Source: Terriglobales bacterium (GTDB lineage Bacteria; Acidobacteriota; Terriglobia; Terriglobales; SCQP01). Taken from it: DNA of 64,000 bases. Below are positions 8,811-64,000 of this stretch, piece after piece. A program made the position numbers and the translations under genes. Under the pieces are notes generated by a model. That model was given only the letters and a program-made list of their open reading frames with translations, was not told the origin of the DNA and made no database searches. How positions within the stretch are numbered: the stretch's first letter is position 1; each line of letters opens with the position of its first letter. The DNA is taken from contig JBOGKX010000012.1 of the NCBI GenBank assembly GCA_050746125.1, forward strand, positions 28,575-92,574, in the 5' to 3' direction.

Positions 8811-9139
8811 GGCTATGCGGGCGGCCCCGGGGATAGCCGCACCACTCCAAAGTTATCGCGCCGAGAGCGCGCCAGCTGACTACCAACTATAGGCGATGCA
8901 AGAGTTTGCGGTAAAGGCAGTCGAAGTACAGGGAACCTGTCCGTCACCTGTCCACTCGCGTCGAAGCATGGAGGAAGTCCAGAAAATGCCTAGCGATACC
9001 GGGACACGCAGCAGCGGAGGGAATTGCTCGGGGGGCAACTTATGGCGAAGAGCCGCCTTCTCACCCAGTACGGGAAATTTACATTACCGAAGGGCCGGTG
9101 CGTTCCGCCCGGACTCTTCCACTTCAGAGGGGTTCAAAT

Positions 9140-11107
9140 ATGAAGTTCTTTTCTCGAACGTGGTACTTGCCGCTAGCCTTGAGCGTGGCGGCCGGCCTGT
9201 GCTGGGGACAGCAGCCCACGCAGTATCCCGGCGAGCAGCAATCGCCTGGGCAGCAGCAGCAACCGGCGCAGGCACAACCGCCCGCGCAACAGCCTGGCGC
9301 CAGCAGCGATACCCAAACTCAGACTCAGGTACAGAGCGCGATCGACGCCAACTCCGCATTGAAAGCGGCGGGCGTGACCGCCACGGTGACCAATGGACAG
9401 GTCACGCTCATGGGCGTAGTCGGCGACAACTCGCTGAAAGATGAAGCCGAAAGCGCCGCGAAATCAGTCGCGGGTGTGACTAGCATCCAAAATCTAATCA
9501 CCGTCAGTCCCAGCGCGGGGCAACAGACAACGCAGCCAAGTCAAGCGCAGCAGCCGGGCCAGCAGCAACCCGCGCAGCCCGGCCAGGAACAGCAGCCCGG
9601 CCAGCAACCGGCGCAACCTGGGCAGCAGCCGACACAGCCGGGCCAGCAGCCGCCTTCGTCTCAGCCGGGGCAGCAGGCACAGCCGCCCGCGGCACAGCCG
9701 GGGCAACAGCCCACGCAACCAGGCCAGGAACAGCAACCAGAGCAGCAGCCGACGCAGCCGGGGCAACAACCCGCGCAGCCCGGCCAGGAACAGCAGCCCG
9801 GCCAGCAACCGGCGCAGCCTGGGCAGCAGCCGACACAGCCGGGCCAGATGCCGCCTTCGTCTCAGCCGGGGCAGCAGGCACAGCCGCCCGCGGCACAGCC
9901 GGGGCAACAGCCCACGCAACCCGGCCAGGAGCAGCAGCCGGGCCAGCAGCCAACCCAGCCGGGTCAAACGCCGCCTTCAGCGCAACCGGGACAGCCGGCT
10001 CAGCCGCCGGCGCAGCCTGAGGCGGGGACCGGCATACAAGGGCAAGTCAATTCGGCTTTGATGAACGACCCGGAGCTCGGCAAATATGCACTGACGGCTT
10101 CGGTGGATCCCAAGGGCGCCGTCACGCTCTCCGGCACCGTGCCGAACAAGAGTGATAAGAAGCACGCCAAGCAAGTGGTCGAAGACGTCGGCGGCGTCAC
10201 TAAGGTTCACAACAAAATCAAGGTCAATTCCAGCGCTACGCCGATGCAAGGCCAGCCGCCGCAAGGGCAAACGCCGCCGGCGGAACAGCCACCCTATTCA
10301 GGGCAGCAGCCCACGACGCAGCAGCCTCCGACGCAGCCCAGCCAGCCACCGGCGACGGAGCCACAACAGCCGCCGACTTCCGAGCCTCCTAATGGCGAGC
10401 CGCCCCTGCTAGGGCCGCATTCGCCGCTAGGCCAAAACGGCTCGGCCGGAGCGCCGGGAACGGCGGCACCGGTGCAACAGAGTCAGTCGAGCCAGACCAA
10501 TCCGGCCACCGGGCAGCAGTCGGTGGATACGTCGCAACAATTGCAACAGCAACTGACGCAGGCGCTCGCGAACGATCCGGAGCTTTCGAAATACGGCGTG
10601 AAGGGCGTCGTCACCGGCAATGGCAAGGTCACGCTCGAAGGCGTGGTGCCCAGCAAGTCGGATAAGAAGCACGCCGAAGTGCTCGCCAAGGGAATCAACG
10701 GCGTGCGCGCCGTGGATGACAAATTGACCGTGGATGCCAACGCCAAGCCAGTCAGCACCGAACAACAACCCTCGGAGCAACCGCCGGCGCAACAGCCTCC
10801 GCAAACGCCAGGCGGCGGCGTGCTCTGGAGCCAGCAATCGAGCGCGCAAGCGGCGGCCAATCCGGCAATGCCGCAGGACGAAGAGACGCAGCTGCAAAAC
10901 TCGCTCAAGAACGATCCGGCGTTGAGCGGCGTGAACGCCGCAGTGAGCGGCAACACCGTCACACTGACCGGCACGGTGGGCAGCAGGGCGGACAAGAAGC
11001 GCGCCGAGGACATGATCAAGAAAGCAGCTCCGAAAGGCGCCAAAATCCACGATCGGATCAAGGTGCAGAAGACGAGCCAGGGCGCGCAGCAACCCCCGGC
11101 CTTGTAA
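9140..11107 (+). CDS. Secreted protein with four BON domains separated by Q/P-rich low-complexity linkers
   Basis: The start is moved to MKFFSRTWYLPLALSVAAGLCWG, a signal peptide with a GAGGGG SD-like run upstream. There are four BON-like blocks, for example NDPELGKYALTASVDPKGAVTLSGTVPNKSDKKHAKQVVEDVGGVTKVHNKIKV. Long QPGQQPTQPG tracts lie between them. Confidence 0.8.
   Translation: MKFFSRTWYLPLALSVAAGLCWGQQPTQYPGEQQSPGQQQQPAQAQPPAQQPGASSDTQTQTQVQSAIDANSALKAAGVTATVTNGQVTLMGVVGDNSLKDEAESAAKSVAGVTSIQNLITVSPSAGQQTTQPSQAQQPGQQQPAQPGQEQQPGQQPAQPGQQPTQPGQQPPSSQPGQQAQPPAAQPGQQPTQPGQEQQPEQQPTQPGQQPAQPGQEQQPGQQPAQPGQQPTQPGQMPPSSQPGQQAQPPAAQPGQQPTQPGQEQQPGQQPTQPGQTPPSAQPGQPAQPPAQPEAGTGIQGQVNSALMNDPELGKYALTASVDPKGAVTLSGTVPNKSDKKHAKQVVEDVGGVTKVHNKIKVNSSATPMQGQPPQGQTPPAEQPPYSGQQPTTQQPPTQPSQPPATEPQQPPTSEPPNGEPPLLGPHSPLGQNGSAGAPGTAAPVQQSQSSQTNPATGQQSVDTSQQLQQQLTQALANDPELSKYGVKGVVTGNGKVTLEGVVPSKSDKKHAEVLAKGINGVRAVDDKLTVDANAKPVSTEQQPSEQPPAQQPPQTPGGGVLWSQQSSAQAAANPAMPQDEETQLQNSLKNDPALSGVNAAVSGNTVTLTGTVGSRADKKRAEDMIKKAAPKGAKIHDRIKVQKTSQGAQQPPAL
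9575..9976 (+). repeat. Tandem duplication of a 201-bp (67-codon) unit inside the BON gene
   Basis: The unit starting cagcccggccaggaacagcagcccggccagcaaccggcgca at 9575 recurs at 9776. By eye, the first ~150 nt of the two units differ at only a handful of positions, and the last ~45 nt diverge. Confidence 0.85.
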
Positions 11108-45374: not shown

Positions 45375-46931
45375 GTGAACGAAGAAAAACTTAAAATTGC
45401 TGTTTTCATAGACTTCGACAACATTCAAATCGGGGTGCGCAGCACCCTCGGCCGAGACTTCGATCTCGCCTTGGTGCTGGAAGCGCTCAAGGAACGCGGC
45501 GAAGTGGTCACCAAGGTGGCCTATGGAAATTGGAAGCGCGCCGGGGAATTGACTCGCACGCTCACCCAAAATGCCGTGCTTATGGTGCAGCGCGACTTGA
45601 CTCCGCGCGGCGACAAAAACGGCGCCGATATCAACCTGGCTCTCGACGCGCTGGAGATGGCTATCAACCATTCCCACATCAACGCCTTCGTCATCGTCGG
45701 CGGCGATAGCGATTTCATCGCCCTGGTCGAGAAGCTGAAGCAATACAACAAGGCGGTTTTCGTGGTGGGAGGCCGTTCCTTCACGAGCAGCGTCTTGCAG
45801 CGCAATTGCCGCGAGTTCATCGGCTACGAGAATCTGATCGAATCGGTGACGACCGATCGCCGGCGCGACTCGGAGCTGGCGCGGCGGCGTGAAATCTTCC
45901 CCTTGCAGCGCGCCGTGCCCTTGATCTACCGCGCCCTCAAGGTGCTGGCCGATCGCGAAGTGCAGGCGCAATTGGGCCTGCTGAAGAGCACCCTGATCCA
46001 GTTGGATTCCACCTTCAACGAGCGCGACTTCGGCAGCAGCTCGTTCCGCAATTTCGTGCAAAAAATGGCTGACGCGCAATTGATCGCCGTGCGCCAGCAG
46101 GGCAACAGCGTGGTCGTCGAGCCGCTCGAGCGCGAGCCGCTAGTCGAGGGCCTGGAAACGAATGATTTGCCCGTCGCCGGCAACGGCGAATCGGGCGGCG
46201 AGGCTGTCGCCGAGGCAAGGGAGGAAAATGCCGCCGAAGTGGGCGTCAAACCCGCATTCGACAACGGCAATGGCGAAGCACGCGAGGCGCCGATTGCCAC
46301 GCGGCCTCCGGATGAAGCCGTGGAGCTGTTGGCCCGCGTGCTAGATCCTTTGCGCGGCACCAATCCCCGGCCGTTGTATCTGCGCAACGTAAAGCAACTT
46401 TTGCGCAACGAGCAGCCCGGCTTCGATGAGCAGCGGCATGGCTTCGCCTCCCTGGTCGAACTCTTGCGTGCCGGCCAGTCGCGCAACTTGCTGCGCCTGC
46501 AGCGCGATCGCCGCGGCGCGCTGCGCGTCTTTATTCCCGGTCCGCCGCCGCCCAGCCAACCGGGGGCGGGCGCACCCGCGCCTCTCGCCGCTGATGGCAA
46601 CCCCGGTGACGTAGCGCCGGGGGACGGCGAGACAAGCGCTGGCGAGGACGAACCTCTCGGTCTGGGCAGTGTGGCCGCGCCCGACGCGGCGGTAGGCGAC
46701 GGTGATGCAGTTTCCGAGCGGCCTGCCGTGCCCCGCGGCGAGGATCCGGAGGACTCGCAGATTCGCATTCTCGGGTACTACAAGGGCATTCATGGTGAGC
46801 CGGGCGGCGAAGAACCGCCGCTCAGTTTGACGGAGGCGGTCATGGCCGAGGCCGGCGGCGGACGCAAAAAGCGCCCGCGCAAGCCCAAGGCCAATGGCTC
46901 GGCCCCGCACCGGCGCAAGCCGCAAAAATAG
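45375..46931 (+). CDS. NYN (LabA-like) nuclease domain protein with OST-HTH/LOTUS-type region and a disordered basic tail
   Basis: IAVFIDFDNIQ ... NGADINLALDALEM ... FVIVGGDSDFIALVEKLK is the NYN/LabA signature. The central FRNFVQKMADAQLIAVRQQG and GFASLVELLRAGQSRNLLRLQ blocks resemble OST-HTH. GTG start. Confidence 0.75.
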   Translation: MNEEKLKIAVFIDFDNIQIGVRSTLGRDFDLALVLEALKERGEVVTKVAYGNWKRAGELTRTLTQNAVLMVQRDLTPRGDKNGADINLALDALEMAINHSHINAFVIVGGDSDFIALVEKLKQYNKAVFVVGGRSFTSSVLQRNCREFIGYENLIESVTTDRRRDSELARRREIFPLQRAVPLIYRALKVLADREVQAQLGLLKSTLIQLDSTFNERDFGSSSFRNFVQKMADAQLIAVRQQGNSVVVEPLEREPLVEGLETNDLPVAGNGESGGEAVAEAREENAAEVGVKPAFDNGNGEAREAPIATRPPDEAVELLARVLDPLRGTNPRPLYLRNVKQLLRNEQPGFDEQRHGFASLVELLRAGQSRNLLRLQRDRRGALRVFIPGPPPPSQPGAGAPAPLAADGNPGDVAPGDGETSAGEDEPLGLGSVAAPDAAVGDGDAVSERPAVPRGEDPEDSQIRILGYYKGIHGEPGGEEPPLSLTEAVMAEAGGGRKKRPRKPKANGSAPHRRKPQK

Positions 46932-47011: not shown

Positions 47012-47647
47012 TTACTGGGCCGGGCTGGGAACGCAGTTGTCGCACTTGGTCACCTGATGCACGATGATCCCAGTGACTACTGCGGCGGCTGCCGCCACGC
47101 CGATCGTTACCGGCAGCGGAACGGTCGTGCCGCTAGATCCAACGGCCGGGGCCGGAGTGCCTTGATCCTGGAAGCGGATCGCCTCGCCGGCGTTAACAGT
47201 GTAAGTCTTGCTCAATCCTTCCACTTTCACGCTGCCGGCAATCGCCTGGACATAAACGGGTCCATTAAGCGCCGTCACCGCAAAGCGGGCGTTGGAAGAC
47301 GTGGGAACCACGGTCGCGGTGTGGAGGGCCACTGGCAAACTGCCGGAAACCTTCACCATGCCGTAGCTCAGGCGTACCTGGTTGACATCGGCTTTGCGCT
47401 CGAACGCGAAATGCGTCTTGGCGGCCGCAATCAGCGAACCACCAGGAAGCACCATGCGAGCACTTCCATCCTGGCTTACGACAACCGAGTCACCGGTCAC
47501 GATCGCTGAACCCGCAACGATGGGCTGGCCATTGACATCGACCGTCCCCGCCATTGGGCTCAGCATCGCGCCGTCGGTTCCCAGCAAGGGAAGGCAAGCC
47601 ATTAAGCCCACCAAAACCGATGCGAGCAGCGAACGGGAAACTTTCAT
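47012..47647 (-). CDS. Hypothetical secreted protein with a C-terminal membrane anchor (211 aa)
   Basis: It has a signal peptide (LLASVLVGLMACLPLLG), a beta-rich body and a C-terminal hydrophobic segment IGVAAAAAVVTGIIV. I recognise no family with confidence. Confidence 0.5.
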   Translation of the reverse strand: MKVSRSLLASVLVGLMACLPLLGTDGAMLSPMAGTVDVNGQPIVAGSAIVTGDSVVVSQDGSARMVLPGGSLIAAAKTHFAFERKADVNQVRLSYGMVKVSGSLPVALHTATVVPTSSNARFAVTALNGPVYVQAIAGSVKVEGLSKTYTVNAGEAIRFQDQGTPAPAVGSSGTTVPLPVTIGVAAAAAVVTGIIVHQVTKCDNCVPSPAQ

Positions 47648-52919: not shown

Positions 52920-53411
52920 TCAGCCCCGCGGGGGGGCGCCGGGCTGGGTGCTCATCGGCACTTGCACCAAGCGGTTCGTGAGGTCGCCAACCTCCTGCTC
53001 GTGGCCGAGCAGATCGTGCAAAGTGGTGCGCGTCAGCACCCGGTCCACGGCCGACTGCACGGTGCGCCAGAGCGAGCGCAGCGAGCAATCGATCGAGTGC
53101 GTGCAAACCAGTTCCTCGCCGGCATGGCGCTCGCAAAACTCCGGGTCGAAGAGCCGCCCGCCCAGCACCGCCAGCGCCTCGGCCACCACGATCTGGTCCG
53201 CCGGCCGGGCCAGCACGTAGCCGCCGGCCTGTCCGCGCGCGCTGCGCGCCAATTGCCCACGGCGCAGCACGCGCAGCAGCTTCGCCACGTAATGCGGCGA
53301 GATGCCCTCCAGGCGGCTAATTTCGGGGATGGTCAGGCTGGCGCTGGGCGGCTGCATGCCCAGGCGCAGCAGGCAGCGCAAGCCGTATTCTTCCTGGGAG
53401 CTGAACTTCAT
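52920..53411 (-). CDS. Rrf2 family transcriptional regulator (IscR/SufR-like, three-Cys cluster)
   Basis: MKFSSQEEYGLRCLLRLG ... ISPHYVAKLLRVLRRGQL is an Rrf2 winged HTH. Cys cluster: FCERHAGEELVCTHSIDC. The start overlaps the sufT stop by 4 nt. Confidence 0.85.
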   Translation of the reverse strand: MKFSSQEEYGLRCLLRLGMQPPSASLTIPEISRLEGISPHYVAKLLRVLRRGQLARSARGQAGGYVLARPADQIVVAEALAVLGGRLFDPEFCERHAGEELVCTHSIDCSLRSLWRTVQSAVDRVLTRTTLHDLLGHEQEVGDLTNRLVQVPMSTQPGAPPRG

Positions 53412-57723: not shown

Positions 57724-59172
<1,449 letters not shown>

Positions 59173-59197
59173 AGTGTCTCCACCCCCTATCCTGGCA

Positions 59198-59221
59198 AAT
59201 CTGTACAAGAAAGTCTAGATT
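59198..59221. promoter_or_regulatory. Imperfect palindrome in the sufB promoter region, candidate Rrf2 operator
   Basis: The sequence aatctgtacaagaaagtctagatt has half-sites AATCTGTAC and (reverse complement) AATCTAGAC, matching at 7 of 9 positions. It lies 26 nt upstream of the sufB ATG. Confidence 0.35.
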
Positions 59222-59398
59222 GCTCTGGAACGTAAAACGCTGCTCCGCAGCCGCGCTGGCGCCTCGAATCGCGGCCGGGGAGCGGGCCCCGGGGACGGCG
59301 CAAAAATTTGTCTCATTTTGGCGGCGTCCAGGCCCATTTCGTCCCCCCAAGCGCGGGGGTGGGGTCAAGAAAACAGGGAACTTGGCGATCGCCGACCG

Positions 59399-59755
59399 TT
59401 AAGACACGGCGGTGTGTTTTTGCGCCGGCGTCGCGCTGTCGGGGGACTCGAAAATTGGCGCCACGGCACGACCGGTACGAGTTGGCACACCTCGCCCACA
59501 GTGGCTACGATGCCACTTTCGGTGGAGGTGGTTGCCTGGACTAGCTACAGCGCCTGGGCGGTCACCGGCGCCGCGGAGATCTTGAGGCGGAGACTGGTCC
59601 CGAAGCGCCAGGCAGTGCGCGGCGGCGGCCTCGGCGCGAGAAATTGGGCGATCGGCGTGAATTACCCAAAAGCCGGCGGCCAGGTGGAGGGCCCGGCGGA
59701 TCGGCTTGGGGATGACAATGCGGCCCGCGGCATCGATTGGGACCTCGCTCTTCAT
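59399..59755 (-). CDS. SpoVT/AbrB-like N-terminal domain protein, possibly an orphan or degenerate antitoxin
   Basis: The first ~25 aa (MKSEVPIDAAGRIVIPKPIRRALHL) match the AbrB/MazE swapped-hairpin motif. The remaining ~90 aa are low-complexity and unrecognisable. No toxin gene follows. Confidence 0.4.
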   Translation of the reverse strand: MKSEVPIDAAGRIVIPKPIRRALHLAAGFWVIHADRPISRAEAAAAHCLALRDQSPPQDLRGAGDRPGAVASPGNHLHRKWHRSHCGRGVPTRTGRAVAPIFESPDSATPAQKHTAVS

Positions 59756-59862
59756 TCATGCCATTTTTACCTCGCGCATCTCCCCCTGCGCTCGTTGCGA
59801 TGCCGGAGCGTAGTGCTTGCCTGGCGGCATAGAGAATCGGCCACATTCGGGCCTCTCGCAAG

Positions 59863-60318
59863 CTAGCGTAGCCAGCGGCCGAGGATGAGGGCCTCGAGGC
59901 CGGGGAGTCGGGCGAAGGCGGAATCGTTGGTCACGATCGCGGTGGCGCCGGCGGCCTCGGCGGTGGCAGCTTGCAGGGCGTCGGGCGTCCGCAGCCGCCA
60001 CTGGGCACGGAGGCGCGCGGCGCGGTCGGCGATGTCGAGGTCGGGTGCCAGCCAACGGAGTCCGGGGAGCATGGTCGCGGCCGCAAAGATGGCATCGACC
60101 CGCGGCTCGTCGCCGGCACGGTAAGCCGGGATGAGCAGTTCGGTCATGGTAATGCTCGAGGTAACTCCTGCCGTTTTGCCGCTGGCGATGAGTTCGAGCG
60201 CGGCGTTGGCCAACGCGCCAAAGCGCCGGTCGCTTTCGAGATGGTAGATCAGCACGTTCGTGTCGAGCGCCAGGAGGCGATGGCGGAGCAGCCGCGCTCG
60301 CCATTCGACTAGTCCCAC
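59863..60318 (-). CDS. vapC: PIN-domain ribonuclease toxin VapC
   Basis: ALDTNVLIY, TMTELL and IVTNDSAF give the acidic residues of a PIN domain. GTG start at 60318 overlaps the vapB stop by 10 nt. The upstream part of the 282-aa track ORF overlaps vapB out of frame. Confidence 0.85.
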   Translation of the reverse strand: MGLVEWRARLLRHRLLALDTNVLIYHLESDRRFGALANAALELIASGKTAGVTSSITMTELLIPAYRAGDEPRVDAIFAAATMLPGLRWLAPDLDIADRAARLRAQWRLRTPDALQAATAEAAGATAIVTNDSAFARLPGLEALILGRWLR

Positions 60319-60530
60319 GCGCGCCGTTCCCGTTTCACGTAATTGCGGCCGTAGAGGCCTTTGCCCAGGCCGCGCAGCGCCGCGACGAGATCGTCGGGAC
60401 GCTTCAGGACTAGGGCGCGGTTTCCGCGCAGTACGAACTGGACGAGATCGCCGGGTTTGAGACCCAGCGCCCGCCGCGCGGCGGCCGGGATGACGATTTG
60501 GTTCTTCGAGGACAATTTCGCCACGGGCAT
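60309..60530 (-). CDS. vapB: AbrB/SpoVT-type antitoxin VapB
   Basis: 73 aa. Contains MPVAKLSSKNQIVIPAAARRALGLKPGDLVQFVLRGNRALVLKRP. Confidence 0.85.
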   Translation of the reverse strand: MPVAKLSSKNQIVIPAAARRALGLKPGDLVQFVLRGNRALVLKRPDDLVAALRGLGKGLYGRNYVKRERRAWD

Positions 60531-60557
60531 GCTTTACATTATATGAAAAAGTAAAGC
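60531..60557 (-). promoter_or_regulatory. vapBC promoter/operator: a 7-bp inverted repeat bracketing a TATAAT box
   Basis: The minus strand reads GCTTTAC-tttttca-TATAAT-GTAAAGC-ATG. The perfect -10 hexamer ends 7 nt before the vapB ATG, which suggests a leaderless mRNA. The inverted repeat is gctttac/gtaaagc. Confidence 0.5.
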
Positions 60558-61075
60558 GAGGGCCAGCTGTCAAGCGCAAGGCCGCTGGCATCAAGCCGGG
60601 CGGCGCGGGCAAGACCACCGTGATGGCCGTATTGAAGCGGGGCGGCGAGATCCGCACCCGCGTCATCGCCGACCGCACCGCCGAGATCCTGGACTTGGTC
60701 GTGAAGGCCAACGTGCACCGCGGATCCGAACTTTACACCGATGAGAACTCTGGCTACTTCGGGCTGGGCAAGGATTACGCCTACAACGTCATCGACCACG
60801 CTGTGTCCTACGTAGACGGCCAGATCTATGCCAAGGGTCTGGAGAATTTCTGGAGCCTGGTCAAGCGCGGCCTCGGGGGCACCTACGTATCCGTGGAACC
60901 GTTCCATCTGTTCCGCTACCTGGACGAACAGGGAATCCGTTACAACATCCGCAAGGACGGCGACCGCGGGATCACCGATGCCGAGCGGTTCCAGATCGCC
61001 ATGGGGCAAATCAGCGGGAAGCGCCTCACCTACGAAAAGCTGACCGGGAAGGAGGGGGAAACGGAAGCTTTTTAA
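60554..61075 (+). pseudogene. 5'-truncated IS1595-family (ISXO2-like DDE) transposase remnant
   Basis: GAGKTTVMAVLKRGGEIRTRVIADR...ELYTDENSGYFGL...GLENFWSLVKRG...RYLDEQGIRYNIRK...GKRLTYEKLTG matches the C-terminal two-thirds of IS1595 transposases. The second D and the E of the DDE triad are present. The N-terminal zinc-ribbon and first D region are absent, and the homologous frame starts right at the vapB promoter. Confidence 0.75.
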
Positions 61076-61196
61076 TCGGCCCCGTCAGAGTCGAGGCAGG
61101 CGTTTACCGACCGGCGTCGGGGGAACAGAGATCGGTTGACAGCGCCTTCGGCGCACGCCTAACGTCTAGGATAAGAAAGGCCGATACAATAGCGAT

Positions 61197-61451
61197 ATGG
61201 CTGCCCATCGAAAAGTTCGCCTGCCGGATGGCAAGGATTACGACAGCGTCGTCGTCGAATTCGAGCCCGAAAAGGAGAGCTTCAGCATCTACTTGCTGGA
61301 GGATGGGACGACCCTCAAAGTAAAGGCGGTTCTCACCGAAGTGTCGCGCGTCGAAGGTGCCTACCTTCCTAACGGCGACCCGCTCTACGCTATCCAGGCG
61401 GCGCAAATTCTCTCGGCTGTCGCGCCCGAGCACCTACGGAAAAAGGAGTAA
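61197..61451 (+). CDS. Hypothetical protein (84 aa), cassette ORF1
   Basis: A TACAAT hexamer (61185-61190) ends 6 nt before the ATG, and a TTGACA lies at 61136-61141. I recognise no family. Confidence 0.5.
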   Translation: MAAHRKVRLPDGKDYDSVVVEFEPEKESFSIYLLEDGTTLKVKAVLTEVSRVEGAYLPNGDPLYAIQAAQILSAVAPEHLRKKE

Positions 61452-61454
61452 CGC

Positions 61455-61877
61455 ATGTTCAGCCAAACTCCAGATCCGATTCTGGTCGAAATGCCAATAT
61501 GCATTATCGGTCAGCGCAATCAAGACCTGCCGCAGGTCGACCTCAAGCTGCAGGGAACCAATTGGGATTCCCTGCCGCCGACGTTTCCTAGTCTGTTTCC
61601 GGCAGCTCGCCACATGGTTGACCTCATCGTAGAAGCGCTTGGCAACGTGCCGCAGGTGAGGCGCGTCCTCATTGGCCGCTCCGGTGAGGTCTATCACGTC
61701 TGGACACTTACCGACAAGTGGACTGCCGAGTCTCGCCGCCAAATATACGACACTCAACTTGGCCTTTTAGACGATTTGCGCGGATTTTTGCTCGACTTTT
61801 ACGTCATTCGCTTGGACGCGAACGACGATGTTGACAGTGTCGCGGCTGGAATTCCGGTTGTTTTCGATAGGAAATAG
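61455..61877 (+). CDS. Hypothetical protein (140 aa), cassette ORF2
   Basis: The ATG lies 3 nt after the ORF1 stop and is preceded by AAGGAG at optimal spacing. I recognise no family. Confidence 0.6.
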   Translation: MFSQTPDPILVEMPICIIGQRNQDLPQVDLKLQGTNWDSLPPTFPSLFPAARHMVDLIVEALGNVPQVRRVLIGRSGEVYHVWTLTDKWTAESRRQIYDTQLGLLDDLRGFLLDFYVIRLDANDDVDSVAAGIPVVFDRK

Positions 61878-61885
61878 CAGCACCG

Positions 61886-62257
61886 GTGCCTCCGACAGAC
61901 AAGCACGTGCAGATTGCACGGGATAATGGGCATTTTCTGGTTGGACTCAATCCCGCGAACGGACCTGCGCGCGGCTGGGGCGCGACTGTGGCGTTTTATG
62001 AGGCCATCCACTGGGTAGAAGCTTTCTTCGCCAAGCAGCAGATCCATTCTGTTGATCATCGAACGCGCGATAGCGGGCTAGCGATGTTTGCGGAAACCAA
62101 GGGGATCTATAACGATTTTTCAGAACTGAAGACGTTCTCGATGAACGCGCGCTACCATGGGAAATATCCGACTCCGGAGGATTACAAATTGATCGTATTA
62201 CCGGCCCTGGAATCCGTTCAGAGGCAGATGTCCAAAGCGATTTCGCCGCACCCATGA
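61886..62257 (+). CDS. Hypothetical helical protein (123 aa), cassette ORF3
   Basis: The GTG start lies 8 nt after the ORF2 stop. The segment WGATVAFYEAIHWVEAFFAKQQIHSVDHRTRDSG looks like a helical nuclease/Abi-type core, but no canonical motif was identified. Confidence 0.55.
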   Translation: MPPTDKHVQIARDNGHFLVGLNPANGPARGWGATVAFYEAIHWVEAFFAKQQIHSVDHRTRDSGLAMFAETKGIYNDFSELKTFSMNARYHGKYPTPEDYKLIVLPALESVQRQMSKAISPHP

Positions 62258-62403
62258 GGAAGCCGAATCCGGCCATCGCCATCCCCGGCAAGACGGACTT
62301 CGAGCGGTTCCAGAACCTGGTTCATGCGGCGCTGAGCACGCCGCACACACCCGCTCCGAAGCTGCGGAAGCCAGCGAAGAAGCGGCGCAAGGCCCACCGC
62401 TAA
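62254..62403 (+). CDS. Small basic-tailed ORF (49 aa), cassette ORF4. It is not in the ORF track because it is under 60 aa.
   Basis: My own translation gives MRKPNPAIAIPGKTDFERFQNLVHAALSTPHTPAPKLRKPAKKRRKAHR*. The ATG overlaps the ORF3 stop (ATGA). Confidence 0.4.
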   Translation: MRKPNPAIAIPGKTDFERFQNLVHAALSTPHTPAPKLRKPAKKRRKAHR

Positions 62404-62451
62404 CGATTCCGGCCTGTCATGATCCCACGCTGCCGCCGGGGTCTTTATGCG

Positions 62452-63273
62452 TCACCTACCGGGGCGCTGGCGGTCGGCCAGAGCGGCGATGGCCCAGATG
62501 GCGATGAAGCCGAATACCAGGACCAGGCCGGCTAAGGGCAGGGTCTCTTTCAACCCGTAGGTCGCGAAACGGTCGTAGATCAAGATCGAGATCACGCGCG
62601 GGTTGTAGGCAAGGATCACCAGCGAGCCGAATTCGCTGATGGCTCGTGCCAGCATCAGAATGGCCCCGCTGACGATCGAGCCGCGCGCCAGCGGCAGGCT
62701 GACCCGCCAAAACGCGCCGCCCGGACCGTAGCCCAGGCTGCGCGCCAGCCCCTCGAGCTGCGGATCAACGCCGCGAAAGCCGTCGCGGCAAGCATGCACC
62801 AGATAGGGACATGCAATGAACAGCATCGCGCCGGTAATGCCCGTCGCCGTGCCCACAAAATGCAAATGGAGCGCGGCCAGCAGCTTGCCGGCGGCCGCTT
62901 GGCGCGCAAATAGCAGCAGCAGCGCGATGCCCACCACCGGGTGCGGAATCACCAGCGGCAGATCGAGCAGCGCTCGCAACAGCCCCTGGCCGCGAAAACG
63001 CCCGCGCGCCAGCACGTAGCCGAGCGGCACGGCCAGCAGCAAGCCGATCACGGTCGCCGTGCCGGCGGTCGCGAAGGTCAGCGCTAGCGAGGCGCGCACC
63101 TCGGGGTCGGCGAGCACCGTCGGCAAGCCGCCGGCCGAGGCGGCAAAGAGCCGCAGGATCGGCGCTGCCAGATACACCATCAGCAGCGCGGCGGGAAATA
63201 TTAGCCAGGCCGCCAGCGCGCTGGCGTGCACCGGGGCGCCCGAGGAACCGGGGGCGGAGGCGGAGGCGGCCAT
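62452..63273 (-). CDS. ABC transporter permease, molybdate/tungstate/sulfate (ModB/WtpB-like) type
   Basis: Polytopic protein with the permease EAA-like loop LARSLGYGPGGAFWRVSLPLARGSIVSG. The start is moved to MAASASAPG (ATG at 63273), 2 nt after the upstream gene's stop. Confidence 0.75.
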   Translation of the reverse strand: MAASASAPGSSGAPVHASALAAWLIFPAALLMVYLAAPILRLFAASAGGLPTVLADPEVRASLALTFATAGTATVIGLLLAVPLGYVLARGRFRGQGLLRALLDLPLVIPHPVVGIALLLLFARQAAAGKLLAALHLHFVGTATGITGAMLFIACPYLVHACRDGFRGVDPQLEGLARSLGYGPGGAFWRVSLPLARGSIVSGAILMLARAISEFGSLVILAYNPRVISILIYDRFATYGLKETLPLAGLVLVFGFIAIWAIAALADRQRPGR

Positions 63274-63275
63274 GG

Positions 63276-64000
63276 TTAGCTCTGACAGCGGGGCAAACTC
63301 GCGAGCCAACTTGCCAGCGCTGGCGGCGCCGCCCCCGGTTGGCCGGCGACGCAGGGCGGCGTGCGCGGCGGCTGGTCGGCGGCAGCGAGGGCCGCCGCGC
63401 CGCGCGGCGATGCCAGCAGGCGCAAAAATGCCAGCGCTCCATTCACGTTCGCCGCCGTCGCCGGAACCGTAATGCCATAGACGATCTCCGCCGCCATGTT
63501 GATCGCGGCCGGCAAGCGCACGTACCGTAGCCCGTGTTGCTCGGCCACCGAGCGGTATTCCCAGGCGTAGTCGAGTTGTCCGGCTTCGAGCAGGGCCAGC
63601 AGCGCCACCGACTGCGGACGCCGGTTCGCCGCCGGCACCGCCGCCTTGAGGCGCGCCGCCAGGTCCGGACGGTGGTAATAGCGGGCCGCCCGTTGCCAGG
63701 CCCGCAATGTGTTATAGCCCTCCGGATCCAGAGCGGGATCGGCGTAGCCGAAGGCGACGTCGGGGCGTAGAAGAATATCCATCCAATTGCCGGCATTGAT
63801 CTCGCCCGCCGCGCGCGACCGCGGCGTATAGGCAATGACCAGTTCGTTGCCGGCAAATTCCAGCCACCAGCGCGGCGCCCGCCGCCCGTGGGCGCCGGCG
63901 AAGAGGCTGGCATCGGCGAGCGCCAATAAGTCCATGCGCGGGCCGAGATCGAGCAACTGCCGCAGCAAGAAGCGGCTGCCGCCCGTTTCCGGCTCGAAAC
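63276..64000 (-). CDS. Molybdate/tungstate-type ABC substrate-binding protein (ModA/WtpA-like). Partial: the 5' end lies outside the window.
   Basis: The reading frame stays open up to position 64000 (…FEPETGGSRFLLRQLLDLGPRMDLLALAD…). That segment is the GS..L..Q-then-AD pattern of ModA-family proteins. The gene lies directly upstream of the permease. Confidence 0.65.
   Translation of the reverse strand, partial: FEPETGGSRFLLRQLLDLGPRMDLLALADASLFAGAHGRRAPRWWLEFAGNELVIAYTPRSRAAGEINAGNWMDILLRPDVAFGYADPALDPEGYNTLRAWQRAARYYHRPDLAARLKAAVPAANRRPQSVALLALLEAGQLDYAWEYRSVAEQHGLRYVRLPAAINMAAEIVYGITVPATAANVNGALAFLRLLASPRGAAALAAADQPPRTPPCVAGQPGAAPPALASWLASLPRCQS

What the first reader, a model, noticed from the sequence alone, without database searches (positions are those of the whole stretch)
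59222..62451. Compositionally distinct accessory islet wedged between the suf promoter and a molybdate/tungstate ABC operon
Everything else in the 64-kb window is GC-rich housekeeping. This ~3.2-kb stretch instead carries an orphan AbrB-like ORF, vapBC, a truncated IS1595 transposase and four unknown small ORFs, and its GC content is visibly lower, especially from 60540 to 62400. It ends about 50 nt from the stop of a convergent permease gene and begins just upstream of the sufB promoter. That layout suggests serial insertion and decay of mobile cargo at one hotspot.
Basis: partly seen in the sequence, partly recalled or inferred. Interest (0 to 1): 0.55.

Follow-up and report, generated by a model that had tools for sequence, protein, structure and literature searches.

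The report
Decayed cargo-carrying IS1595 element beside vapBC
The low-GC patch between the suf and tungstate-transporter operons is the broken remnant of an IS1595-type jumping gene that carries a conserved, uncharacterised three-gene cargo, sitting next to an ordinary vapBC toxin-antitoxin pair; the islet itself is ordinary, but the cargo is a new gene family set.

Summary
All the listed genes are at the stated coordinates. 60540-62400 is 57.9% GC against 66.1% for the window, and it contains the six lowest 1-kb windows of the window.

The deviation is narrower than described. The left 1.3 kb (AbrB remnant and vapBC) has host composition. At synonymous sites only three ORFs deviate (61197-62257; GC3 0.61-0.71 against 0.81-0.88).

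The IS1595 fragment and the small ORFs are not separate cargo. In all 14 distinct related loci recovered from metagenomes, o84, o140 and o123 homologues occur together, in the same order, under purifying selection, and at lower GC than their flanks. In L088 and L089 the triad lies with a full IS1595 transposase inside terminal inverted repeats (a "transporter IS"). In L094 related repeats enclose the triad with no transposase.

The window copy is a fossil. The transposase lacks about 122 N-terminal residues, and no terminal repeats are detectable.

The triad has no Pfam, NCBIfam, PADLOC or PHROG assignment. o123 looks like a HEPN-type helical bundle but lacks the Rx4-6H motif. A toxin-antitoxin or defence role is my inference only.

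No empty site could be found, so "hotspot" remains untested.

The parts
59399..59755 (-). ORF holding a remnant of an AbrB/SpoVT-type antitoxin domain. The homologous part is only residues 7-28 (about nt 59672-59737). It is probably a pseudogene left over from a second toxin-antitoxin pair downstream of vapC.
   Evidence: TIGR01439 28.5 bits, E 9.4e-7, residues 7-28. Pfam MazE_antitoxin is below threshold. No PIN or other domain is found in any minus-strand frame of 59210-59862. GC3 is 0.67, unlike host genes. Gene callers on L001/L104 did not call it.
59863..60318 (-). vapC, a PIN-domain toxin of 151 aa. It overlaps the end of vapB by 10 nt.
   Evidence: PF01850 E 1.8e-18. The called gene in L001/L002 is 151 aa. 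The four acidic PIN residues can be read directly in the translation (LDTN, TELL, TPDAL, TNDS). GC3 is 0.82, host-like.
60309..60530 (-). vapB, an AbrB/MazE-type antitoxin of 73 aa.
   Evidence: PF04014 E 3.9e-10. TIGR01439 E 5.6e-11. GC3 0.81.
60531..60560 (-). AT-rich stretch upstream of vapB. On the minus strand it carries TATAAT 7 nt before the ATG, bracketed by the inverted hexamers CTTTAC/GTAAAG. I read it as a putative vapBC promoter/operator. The deletion junction with the transposase remnant lies at its outer edge (about 60545-60575).
   Evidence: Read directly from the sequence. The junction is placed from alignments to full-length transposases. Promoter function is inferred, not tested; the consensus scan did not report it.
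60548..61078 (+). 5'-truncated IS1595-family DDE transposase gene. It corresponds to residues ~123-300 of a ~300-aa protein and has a complete C-terminus. The Zn-ribbon/N-terminal part and the left end of the element are missing.
   Evidence: PF12762 profile positions 45-153/153, E 1.4e-19. NF033547 positions 100-215/215. It is 54-58% identical to residues 123/136-298 of the five full-length relatives aligned; the closest of 7021 homologues at E<=1e-10 are 54-64% identical. No N-terminal remnant is found in the window.
61137..61173 (+). Promoter-like TTGACA ... TAGGAT upstream of o84. Other loci have a conserved TTGACGG-N16/17-TAnGAT at the same position. Here the spacer is 25 nt because of an extra GC hairpin, so activity is uncertain.
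   Evidence: Upstream regions of 12 cassette loci compared by eye. The consensus scan did not report it. Inference only.
61197..61451 (+). o84, the first gene of the conserved passenger triad (82-85 aa family). It has no known domain.
   Evidence: 51-63% identical homologues in the same position in 11 loci aligned, a truncated copy in L098, and a distant one in L105 (hhalign 99.4%). pN 0.12-0.26 against pS 0.72-0.80. No Pfam/NCBIfam/PADLOC/PHROG/PDB hit.
61455..61877 (+). o140, the second gene of the triad. It has a variable N-terminal ~50 residues and a conserved ~85-residue alpha/beta C-terminal domain.
   Evidence: 49 cluster representatives at E<1e-3 among 1.84 billion proteins. Invariant G74, S76, H81, W83, W89, R94, Y98, Q101, D114-F-Y116 in the close subfamily. 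In the AF2 model the C-terminal domain has block-mean pLDDT mostly above 90, with topology a-b-b-a-b-(a)-b. Foldseek hits are CDF-transporter C-terminal domains, a chain of the MafB2/MafI2 complex and MntA, at E 2e-3 to 1e-2. No Pfam or PDB sequence hit.
61886..62257 (+). o123, the third gene of the triad (an alternative start at 61907 gives 116 aa). It is an all-helical HEPN-like bundle. Invariant residues are H42, E45, H54-S55, H58-R59-T-R61-D62, R89-Y90 and Y94-P95.
   Evidence: Alignment A4. AF2 pLDDT 69 with four long helices. The top Foldseek PDB hit is the HEPN protein 2hsb (prob 1.0, TM 0.65, E 0.11), followed by many HepT/HEPN chains. Sub-threshold, co-linear PF05168 HEPN matches occur in L084, L095 and L105 (E 0.016-0.059). 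No Rx4-6H motif.
62254..62403 (+). o49, a small ORF overlapping the o123 stop (ATGA), with a basic C-terminal tail. Its status is uncertain. A small ORF in the same position occurs only in loci with an adjacent IS1595 transposase (L089, L092).
   Evidence: GC3 is 0.86, host-like. BLASTP against the L089 ORF finds no alignment, so homology is not shown.
62404..62451 (.). 48-nt spacer before the stop of the convergent wtpB-like permease. The right end of the element is expected here, but no IS1595-type inverted repeat can be recognised.
   Evidence: A PWM built from the inverted repeats of L088, L089, L094 and L102 gives no score above window background here. No inverted or direct repeat pairs flank the islet.

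Best explanation
The islet is a composite of two unrelated accessory modules.

**Module 1 (59.4-60.56 kb).** This is a type II vapBC toxin-antitoxin operon. It has host-like composition and its own promoter/operator. The stump of a second AbrB-type antitoxin lies downstream of it.

**Module 2 (about 60.55-62.40 kb).** This is the fossil of an IS1595-family transporter IS, meaning an insertion sequence that carries passenger genes between its terminal inverted repeats.
- In intact relatives, a Zn-ribbon/DDE transposase and a conserved three-gene operon lie together between 29-39-bp inverted repeats. The operon is o84, then o140, then o123.
- Transposition of such an element presumably moves the operon with it.
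- A transposase-less, repeat-bounded copy also exists.
- In this genome the element landed between vapBC and the 3' end of the wtp operon.
- A later deletion removed its left repeat and the first ~122 codons of the transposase. The deletion stops at the vapBC promoter; anything further would have removed the antitoxin gene.
- The right repeat has eroded as well, so the element can no longer move.

**State of the cargo.** The three passenger genes are intact and keep every invariant family residue. They are probably still expressed from their own promoter.

**Proposed function (inferred, not shown).** The triad is a selfish stabilisation or defence module of the toxin-antitoxin type. o123 would be a HEPN-like effector. 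o140 and/or o84 would be its neutralising or regulatory partners.
For: **Shown**
- Domain assignments and truncation.
- The compositional break is confined to 61197-62257 at synonymous sites.
- The triad is syntenic in all 14 distinct other loci recovered. These include L083, L084, L088-L096 and L098 and the distant L105.
- Synonymous sites are saturated (pS 0.72-0.90) while pN is 0.09-0.49.
- Cassette GC is lower than both flanks in 8 of the 10 loci measured, and in L105. The two exceptions (L083, L091) are short contigs where one brief flank is lower.
- L088: transposase plus triad inside perfect 29-bp inverted repeats.
- L089: a 91%-identical transposase plus the triad in the opposite relative orientation, inside 39-nt repeats.
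- L092: a left repeat, the triad and a transposase stump.
- L094: the triad alone inside 32-nt repeats that align with the IS1595-type repeats.
- Transposases closest to the window fragment (L099, L102) also enclose other unknown passenger ORFs between repeats.
- Transporter ISs are stated to be restricted to the IS1595 and IS66 families (bioRxiv 10.1101/2021.05.26.445724).

**For the functional guess**
- HEPN-like fold and weak co-linear PF05168 matches for o123.
- The o140 domain resembles small toxin-partner or regulatory alpha/beta domains, including MntA.
- Tight or overlapping gene spacing.
- A conserved promoter in most loci, and an upstream palindrome in a subset of them.
Against: - No inverted repeats, target duplication or left end survive in the window. 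That this particular copy arrived as a transporter IS is therefore inferred from relatives whose transposases are only 38% identical to 54-64% identical to the window fragment.
- The transposase fragment has host-like GC3 (0.83) and the triad does not. The two could therefore have different residence times or origins.
- At least five loci carry the triad with no transposase or recognisable repeats nearby: L084, L090, L093, L096 and L105.
- No empty site was found.
- On function:
  - o123 lacks Rx4-6H and has R89-x4-Y94 instead.
  - All its HEPN matches are below family thresholds.
  - o140 lacks the nucleotidyltransferase GS/DxD motifs.
  - There are no PADLOC or PHROG hits.
  - The triad was not found on plasmids, phages or viral contigs.
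  - Nothing was tested experimentally.
Confidence: 0.75

Rival explanations
1. Several unrelated mobile cargoes (an AbrB gene, vapBC, an IS, and four independent small ORFs) were inserted one after another at a hotspot and then decayed.
For: Two compositional layers exist and there are clear signs of decay. An AbrB stump lies next to vapBC.
Against: Three of the four small ORFs always travel together, in the same order. Elsewhere they lie within one pair of IS1595-type repeats together with the transposase. No repeat pairs mark separate insertions in the window. Recurrent use of this site could not be shown in any other genome.
Confidence: 0.15
2. The triad is not IS cargo. It is an independently mobile or resident small operon, and IS1595 elements merely tend to land next to it. 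The window shows such a chance neighbour.
For: Five or more loci have the triad without a transposase or repeats. The associated transposases are very different from one another (38% identity). GC3 differs between the transposase fragment and the triad. IS1595 transposases are abundant, with 7021 homologues at E<=1e-10.
Against: In L088, L089 and L094 the inverted repeats lie outside the triad, not between it and the transposase. In L092 an IS1595-type left repeat again lies upstream of the triad, with a transposase stump beyond it. Four of about 14 distinct loci carry an IS1595 transposase within 300 nt of a 1.1-kb operon.
Confidence: 0.15
3. The three proteins are accessory factors of transposition (regulators or target-choice or DNA-binding partners of the IS1595 transposase), not selfish or defence cargo.
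For: The triad is repeatedly enclosed within IS1595-type ends. A conserved palindrome and promoter upstream of o84 suggest autoregulation by a DNA-binding product.
Against: The triad persists under purifying selection where no transposase is present. It pairs with transposases only 38% identical to each other. It occurs in both orientations relative to the transposase. Other members of the same transposase clade carry entirely different passenger ORFs.
Confidence: 0.08
4. The low-GC stretch is a remnant of a prophage, integrative element or plasmid, not of an IS.
For: It has foreign composition and contains small unknown genes.
Against: There is no integrase, no tRNA and no Rfam hit nearby. 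No PHROG hit has an E-value below 0.02. Nothing matches in phage records, plasmid records or IMG/VR contigs.
Confidence: 0.03

Closest known systems
Transporter IS (tIS) of the IS1595 family. From my own recollection of ISfinder and Siguier et al. 2009, passenger-carrying members are marked '+', e.g. ISPna2+ and ISNwi1+.
   Same: It has an IS1595-type DDE transposase. In the intact relatives L088, L089, L099 and L102, passenger ORFs lie together with the transposase between short terminal inverted repeats. This matches the definition quoted.
   Different: The window copy lacks the N-terminal third of the transposase and both ends, so it is a fossil. The passenger set is a specific, conserved three-gene operon with no annotated family. 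It also occurs in inverted orientation, without a transposase, and outside any recognisable element. No 8-bp target duplication was seen.
Mobile insertion cassettes (MICs): IS-type inverted repeats around passenger genes, with no transposase. MIC231 of Bacillus cereus is cited from my own knowledge; the term is used in PMC4337579.
   Same: L094 has the triad alone between 32-nt repeats that align with IS1595-type repeats.
   Different: This applies to a relative, not to the window copy. Mobilisation in trans was not tested.
HEPN-MNT (HepT-MntA) type II/VII toxin-antitoxin modules
   Same: A small alpha/beta protein gene is followed by a ~120-aa four-helix HEPN-like protein gene. Foldseek lists HepT chains for o123 and MntA chains for o140. 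The module is small, mobile and tightly coupled.
   Different: o123 has R89-x4-Y94 instead of Rx4-6H. o140 has no GS...DxD nucleotidyltransferase motif, and it has a beta-hairpin where the fold would have beta-alpha-beta. There is an additional conserved first gene, o84. All similarities are below significance thresholds.
VapBC type II toxin-antitoxin systems
   Same: 59863-60530 encodes an AbrB-type antitoxin overlapping a PIN-domain toxin with the four acidic residues.
   Different: Nothing unusual. It only explains the left part of the islet, and its composition is host-like.

Membership tests
IS1595-family insertion sequence / transporter IS | DDE transposase of the ISXO2/IS1595 type (PF12762, NF033547) | tested here: met
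   PF12762 E 1.4e-19, but only profile positions 45-153. NF033547 positions 100-215 at 57 bits, below its 75-bit cut-off because the gene is truncated. 54-58% identical to residues 123/136-298 of the five full-length relatives aligned; up to 64% among all homologues.
IS1595-family insertion sequence / transporter IS | N-terminal Zn-ribbon DNA-binding region (PF12760) and a complete catalytic domain | tested here: not met
   About 122 N-terminal residues are missing and there is no remnant elsewhere in the window. The region is present in L088 and L102.
IS1595-family insertion sequence / transporter IS | Terminal inverted repeats bounding the element | tested here: not met
   None in the window, by repeat search or by a PWM of related repeats. 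They are present in relatives: L088 (29 bp), L089 (39 nt), L094 (32 nt), L102 (33 nt) and L099.
IS1595-family insertion sequence / transporter IS | Short (8-bp) direct target duplication | tested here: inconclusive
   This cannot be assessed in the window because the ends are lost. No identical 8-mers flank the repeats of L088 or L094 on inspection.
IS1595-family insertion sequence / transporter IS | Passenger genes located between the repeats together with the transposase | tested here: met
   Met for the same cassette in L088 and L089. For the window copy it is inferred from gene order only.
VapBC type II toxin-antitoxin | PIN-domain toxin preceded by, and overlapping, a small DNA-binding antitoxin gene | tested here: met
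   PF01850 E 1.8e-18. PF04014/TIGR01439 E 3.9e-10/5.6e-11. 10-nt overlap. The acidic residues are visible in the translation.
HEPN domain (PF05168 and superfamily), for o123 | Four-helix up-down bundle of the HEPN type | tested here: inconclusive
   The AF2 model has only pLDDT 69 from a 3-sequence alignment. The top Foldseek hit is 2hsb (TM 0.65, prob 1.0) but with E 0.11. Many HepT chains follow at E>1.
HEPN domain (PF05168 and superfamily), for o123 | Profile match above the family threshold | tested here: not met
   Best 15.8 bits against a cut-off of 22. The match is sub-threshold but co-linear in L084, L095 and L105. No PDB hit with the family profile.
HEPN domain (PF05168 and superfamily), for o123 | Conserved Rx4-6H catalytic motif | tested here: not met
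   No conserved R followed by H at 4-6 residues in 13 sequences. The invariant residues are R89-x4-Y94 and H54-S-x-x-H58-R-T-R-D62.
Minimal nucleotidyltransferase (MNT) antitoxins, for o140 | hG[GS] ... [DE]x[DE] motifs on a beta-alpha-beta nucleotidyltransferase core | tested here: not met
   G74-x-S76 is conserved only in the close subfamily. There is no DxD, and the predicted strands 68-76 and 79-86 form a hairpin. MntA appears only at rank 29-30 of the fold search, with 68 aligned columns.
Known anti-phage defence systems (PADLOC-DB 2.0) | Match of any component to a defence-system model | tested here: not met
   No hit at E<=0.1 for any islet protein.

The most novel reading that the evidence does not exclude
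The o84-o140-o123 triad is a previously undescribed three-component toxin-antitoxin or anti-phage (or IS-addiction) system. Its effector would be a divergent HEPN-like protein that uses an H-S-x-x-H-R-x-R-D / R-x4-Y site instead of Rx4-6H. The triad spreads among soil bacteria by riding inside IS1595-family transporter ISs and transposase-less cassettes.
Probability: 0.3. Interest if true: 0.6.

Novelty: new member of a known kind. Interest (0 to 1): 0.38.

Why it matters
For this genome the result is housekeeping-level. It explains a compositional anomaly as an immobilised IS remnant next to a toxin-antitoxin pair, and it shows that the suf and wtp operons are not affected.

The wider value lies in three points:
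- Three "orphan" ORFs turn out to be a conserved, selected and repeatedly mobilised gene triad with no family assignment.
- The triad gives concrete new examples of transporter ISs and of a transposase-less cassette in the IS1595 family. These come from poorly sampled soil lineages, where the closest sufB relatives are mostly Acidobacteriota.
- It is a cheap candidate for toxin-antitoxin or defence screening, with invariant residues already mapped for mutagenesis.

Tried and rejected
- **Empty-site search.**
  - The genome-contig scan with SufB returned 80 loci at 74-82% identity. None has wtpA/B, vapBC, the IS or the triad within 10 kb, and there is no shared synteny upstream of sufB.
  - Exact-protein look-ups of WtpB and SufB returned only the same organism with the same layout.
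- **Ends of the element in the window.** The repeat search and a PWM from four related repeat pairs found nothing. No close full-length copy of this transposase exists in the protein collection; the best is 64% identical.
- **vapBC inserted into the transposase gene.** Rejected, because no N-terminal transposase remnant lies on the far side of vapBC or anywhere else in the window.
- **A second PIN gene next to the AbrB stump.** Not found.
- **Family assignment of the triad.** Pfam, NCBIfam, PADLOC, PHROGs, PDB by sequence and by profile, and BFVD by fold were all negative or sub-threshold.
- **o140 as a minimal nucleotidyltransferase.** Rejected on motifs and topology.
- **o49 as a conserved fourth gene.** A visual resemblance to the L089/L092 small ORF is not supported by BLASTP.
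- **Non-coding RNA or tRNA at the islet.** None found.
- **Plasmid, phage or viral carriage of the triad.** None found.
- **Large repeat-containing hits of the o140 search (P0017, P0040).** They are unrelated repeat proteins, such as W_rich_C, and were left out of the family.

Full report
**1. What is in the sequence**

The window is a 66.1% GC stretch. Its closest SufB relatives (at most 82% identity) are mostly Acidobacteriota MAGs of the Bryobacterales/Terriglobia groups. The same DNA is present in MAG GCA_975253525.1 and in one Logan assembly, with an identical layout.

Between the start of sufB (57724-59208, minus strand) and the stop of a convergent WtpB/ModB-like permease (62452-63309, minus strand) lie the following features:
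- An ORF (59399-59755, minus) of which only residues 7-28 match the AbrB/SpoVT domain.
- vapC (59863-60318, minus; PIN domain, E 1.8e-18), overlapping vapB.
- vapB (60309-60530, minus; AbrB/MazE type, E 3.9e-10).
- The C-terminal part of an IS1595-family transposase (called ORF 60620-61075, plus; PF12762 positions 45-153 of 153).
- Four tightly spaced plus-strand ORFs without any family hit:
  - o84, 61197-61451;
  - o140, 61455-61877;
  - o123, 61886-62257;
  - o49, 62254-62403.

The last of these ends 48 nt before the permease stop. There is no tRNA, no Rfam family and no significant repeat pair in or around the stretch.

**2. Composition**

- 60540-62400 is 57.9% GC.
- The six lowest 1-kb windows of the whole 64 kb all start between 60501 and 61751.
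- The minimum, 54.9%, is about 3.8 SD below the mean.
- Tetranucleotide distance peaks at z = 4.3 for 60751-62250.
- The only stronger outlier is a Q/P/G-rich tandem-repeat region inside a BON-domain gene at 9.1-11.1 kb.

The deviation is nevertheless narrower than the islet.
- 59222-60540 is 66.8% GC.
- At third codon positions vapB, vapC, the transposase fragment and o49 look like host genes (0.81-0.86, against 0.81-0.88 for suf and wtp genes).
- Only o84, o140 and o123 are foreign (0.71, 0.62, 0.61).

**3. The three small ORFs are one conserved cassette**

Word-indexed searches found almost nothing for o140 and o123. The one 59%-identical o123 homologue sits on a 1.3-kb contig (L083), directly after homologues of o84 (63% identity) and o140 (51% identity).

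A full HMMER scan of 1.84 billion cluster representatives with o140 found 49 proteins at E<1e-3. They share its C-terminal ~85 residues.

Contexts came from exact-protein look-ups and one metagenome scan. They gave 14 distinct further loci in total: L083, L084 (with three near-identical sister contigs), L088-L096, L098 and L105 (L097 repeats L096). Every one carries o84-like, o140-like and o123-like genes in that order on one strand. This includes L105, built around a member only 31% identical to o140 (hhalign probabilities 99.4% and 99.9% for its neighbours).

Synonymous sites between copies are saturated (pS 0.72-0.90), while non-synonymous differences are 0.09-0.49. These are therefore real genes under purifying selection.

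The cassette is less GC-rich than both flanks in 8 of the 10 loci measured, typically by 5-13 points. In L105 the gap is 17-21 points. The exceptions are L083 and L091, short contigs in which one brief flank is lower. This is what one expects of DNA that moves horizontally.

**4. Link to IS1595**

- **L088.** A full-length transposase (311 aa, Zn ribbon plus DDE domain) is followed on the same strand by the triad. The whole is bounded by perfect 29-bp inverted repeats, TATAAGTTCAGAGGTAAATATCCCCTTGA.
- **L089.** A 91%-identical transposase lies convergent to the triad, and 39-nt repeats enclose both. The cassette is thus inverted relative to the transposase between two otherwise related elements.
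- **L092.** It has an IS1595-type left repeat, the triad and a transposase stump.
- **L094.** The triad alone is enclosed by 32-nt repeats (94% complementary). These align with the IS1595-type repeats through a shared GG-AA-TA...CTT(G/T)AC core. This is the architecture of a mobile insertion cassette.
- **L099 and L102.** These hold the full-length transposases most similar to the window fragment whose contexts I examined (58% and 54% identity). They enclose other unannotated passenger ORFs between repeats of the same type.

Elements of this kind are called transporter ISs. They are stated to be restricted to the IS1595 and IS66 families (bioRxiv 10.1101/2021.05.26.445724).

Five loci have the triad with no transposase or recognisable repeat nearby: L084, L090, L093, L096 and L105. 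So IS carriage is recurrent but not obligatory.

**5. State of the window copy**

Aligned to full-length relatives, the fragment corresponds to residues ~123-300 of ~300. It has a complete C-terminus. Homology starts at about nt 60548-60575, that is 18-45 nt from the vapB start codon.

No trace of the N-terminal third exists on the other side of vapBC or anywhere else in the window. The left part was therefore deleted, not displaced by an insertion of vapBC.

The short AT-rich stretch left between vapB and the junction carries a TATAAT flanked by CTTTAC/GTAAAG. I read this as the vapBC promoter/operator, which is an inference. A deletion running further would remove the antitoxin gene of an intact PIN toxin, which may be why it stops there; this too is an inference.

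No IS1595-type repeat is recognisable in the 48 nt between o49 and the permease stop, or anywhere else in the islet. The element is thus immobile.

Its three passenger genes are full-length and keep all invariant family residues.

The promoter-like TTGACGG-N16/17-TAnGAT found upstream of o84 homologues in most loci is present here as TTGACA...TAGGAT. Its spacer is 25 nt, so expression is uncertain.

**6. What the cassette may do**

None of the three proteins matches Pfam, NCBIfam, PADLOC, PHROGs or any PDB sequence at meaningful thresholds.

*o123.*
- It is predicted to be all-helical with four long helices (pLDDT 69).
- Its best structural match is the HEPN protein AF_0298 (2hsb; TM 0.65, probability 1.0, E 0.11).
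- Many HepT toxins of HEPN-MNT modules follow at E>1.
- L084, L095 and L105 give sub-threshold but co-linear matches to Pfam HEPN (E 0.016-0.059).
- It lacks the Rx4-6H motif. Its invariant polar residues are H42, E45, H54-S55, H58-R59-T-R61-D62 and R89-x4-Y94.

*o140.*
- Its C-terminal domain is predicted with high confidence as alpha-beta-beta-alpha-beta-(alpha)-beta.
- It resembles CDF-transporter C-terminal domains, a chain of the MafB2/MafI2 toxin-immunity complex, and, more weakly, MntA antitoxins (E 2e-3 to 1e-2).
- It has neither the motifs nor the topology of a nucleotidyltransferase.

*o49.* It has host-like GC3. It resembles small ORFs in L089 and L092 only by eye.

My working model, at about 0.3 probability, is a toxin-antitoxin-like stabilisation or defence module with o123 as effector. 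It rests on several observations:
- gene size, coupling and order;
- mobility of the cassette;
- persistence without a transposase;
- the conserved promoter, and the upstream palindrome seen in a subset of loci.

A role as transposition accessory factors is less likely. The triad pairs with transposases only 38% identical to one another. It occurs in both orientations relative to the transposase. It survives without one.

**7.

- This is decayed accessory DNA in at least two layers.
- The IS fragment and the unknown ORFs are one element, not serial cargo.
- The vapBC side is compositionally native.
- Neither an empty site nor a hotspot could be demonstrated with the available genomes.

**8. 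Novelty and score**

A vapBC pair and an IS remnant are ordinary, and transporter ISs of the IS1595 family are a known kind. What is new is the specific passenger triad, which consists of three unannotated protein families that always travel together, and the set of intact, inverted, transposase-less and fossil forms documented here.

I rate the finding as a new member of a known kind, with interest 0.38. It would rise to about 0.6 if the triad proves to be a new toxin-antitoxin or defence system.

Noticed in passing
L088:75-2472 compared with L089:1752-4113: Two transporter ISs have 91%-identical transposases, but the three-gene cassette lies in opposite orientation relative to the transposase. 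A remnant of the L089 small fourth ORF lies on the minus strand just after the L088 transposase stop (about L088:1064-1200). This suggests an internal inversion of the cassette segment.
   Followed up: partly
L090-L094, about 75-100 nt upstream of the o84-like start codon (e.g. L094:1800-1822): A palindrome of the form TGCAC-N9-11-GTGCA lies upstream of a conserved TTGACGG-N16/17-TAnGAT promoter. It looks like an operator. It is absent from the window copy, which has a different small palindrome and a 25-nt promoter spacer.
   Followed up: partly
L099:3379-6626, L102:3376-5731, L100:811-2518: The IS1595 transposases closest to the window fragment are each followed by a different unannotated passenger ORF (290, 315 and 305 aa). 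In L099 and L102 these lie inside IS1595-type inverted repeats. Cargo-carrying seems common in this transposase clade.
   Followed up: partly
window 9098-11107 (+), repeats 9562-9967: A BON-domain protein gene contains a Q/P/G-rich tandem-repeat region (period 201, two copies at 93% identity, with many sub-periods). It is the strongest tetranucleotide outlier of the window and is unrelated to mobile DNA.
   Followed up: partly
window 52920-53411 (-): The Rrf2-family regulator gene lies at the distal (3') end of the sufBCDS-nifU operon instead of upstream of sufB. In relative L017 an Rrf2-like gene sits immediately upstream of sufB.
   Followed up: no
window 45375-46931 (+): A NYN-domain plus OST-HTH/LOTUS protein gene lies in the second-lowest GC region of the window (about 60-61% at 44.5-47.5 kb). 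A 211-aa ORF with no Pfam hit is next to it at 47012-47647.
   Followed up: no
window 60531-60560 (-): Immediately upstream of vapB, a TATAAT box sits 7 nt before the ATG, bracketed by the inverted hexamers CTTTAC/GTAAAG. This implies a nearly leaderless vapBC transcript and an operator that now abuts IS-derived DNA.
   Followed up: no
P0017, P0036, P0040 (hits): Three large proteins (435, 5175 and 887 aa) matched the o140 query in several short stretches. P0017 is a W_rich_C repeat protein, so these matches look like repeat or low-complexity artefacts, not family members.
   Followed up: partly
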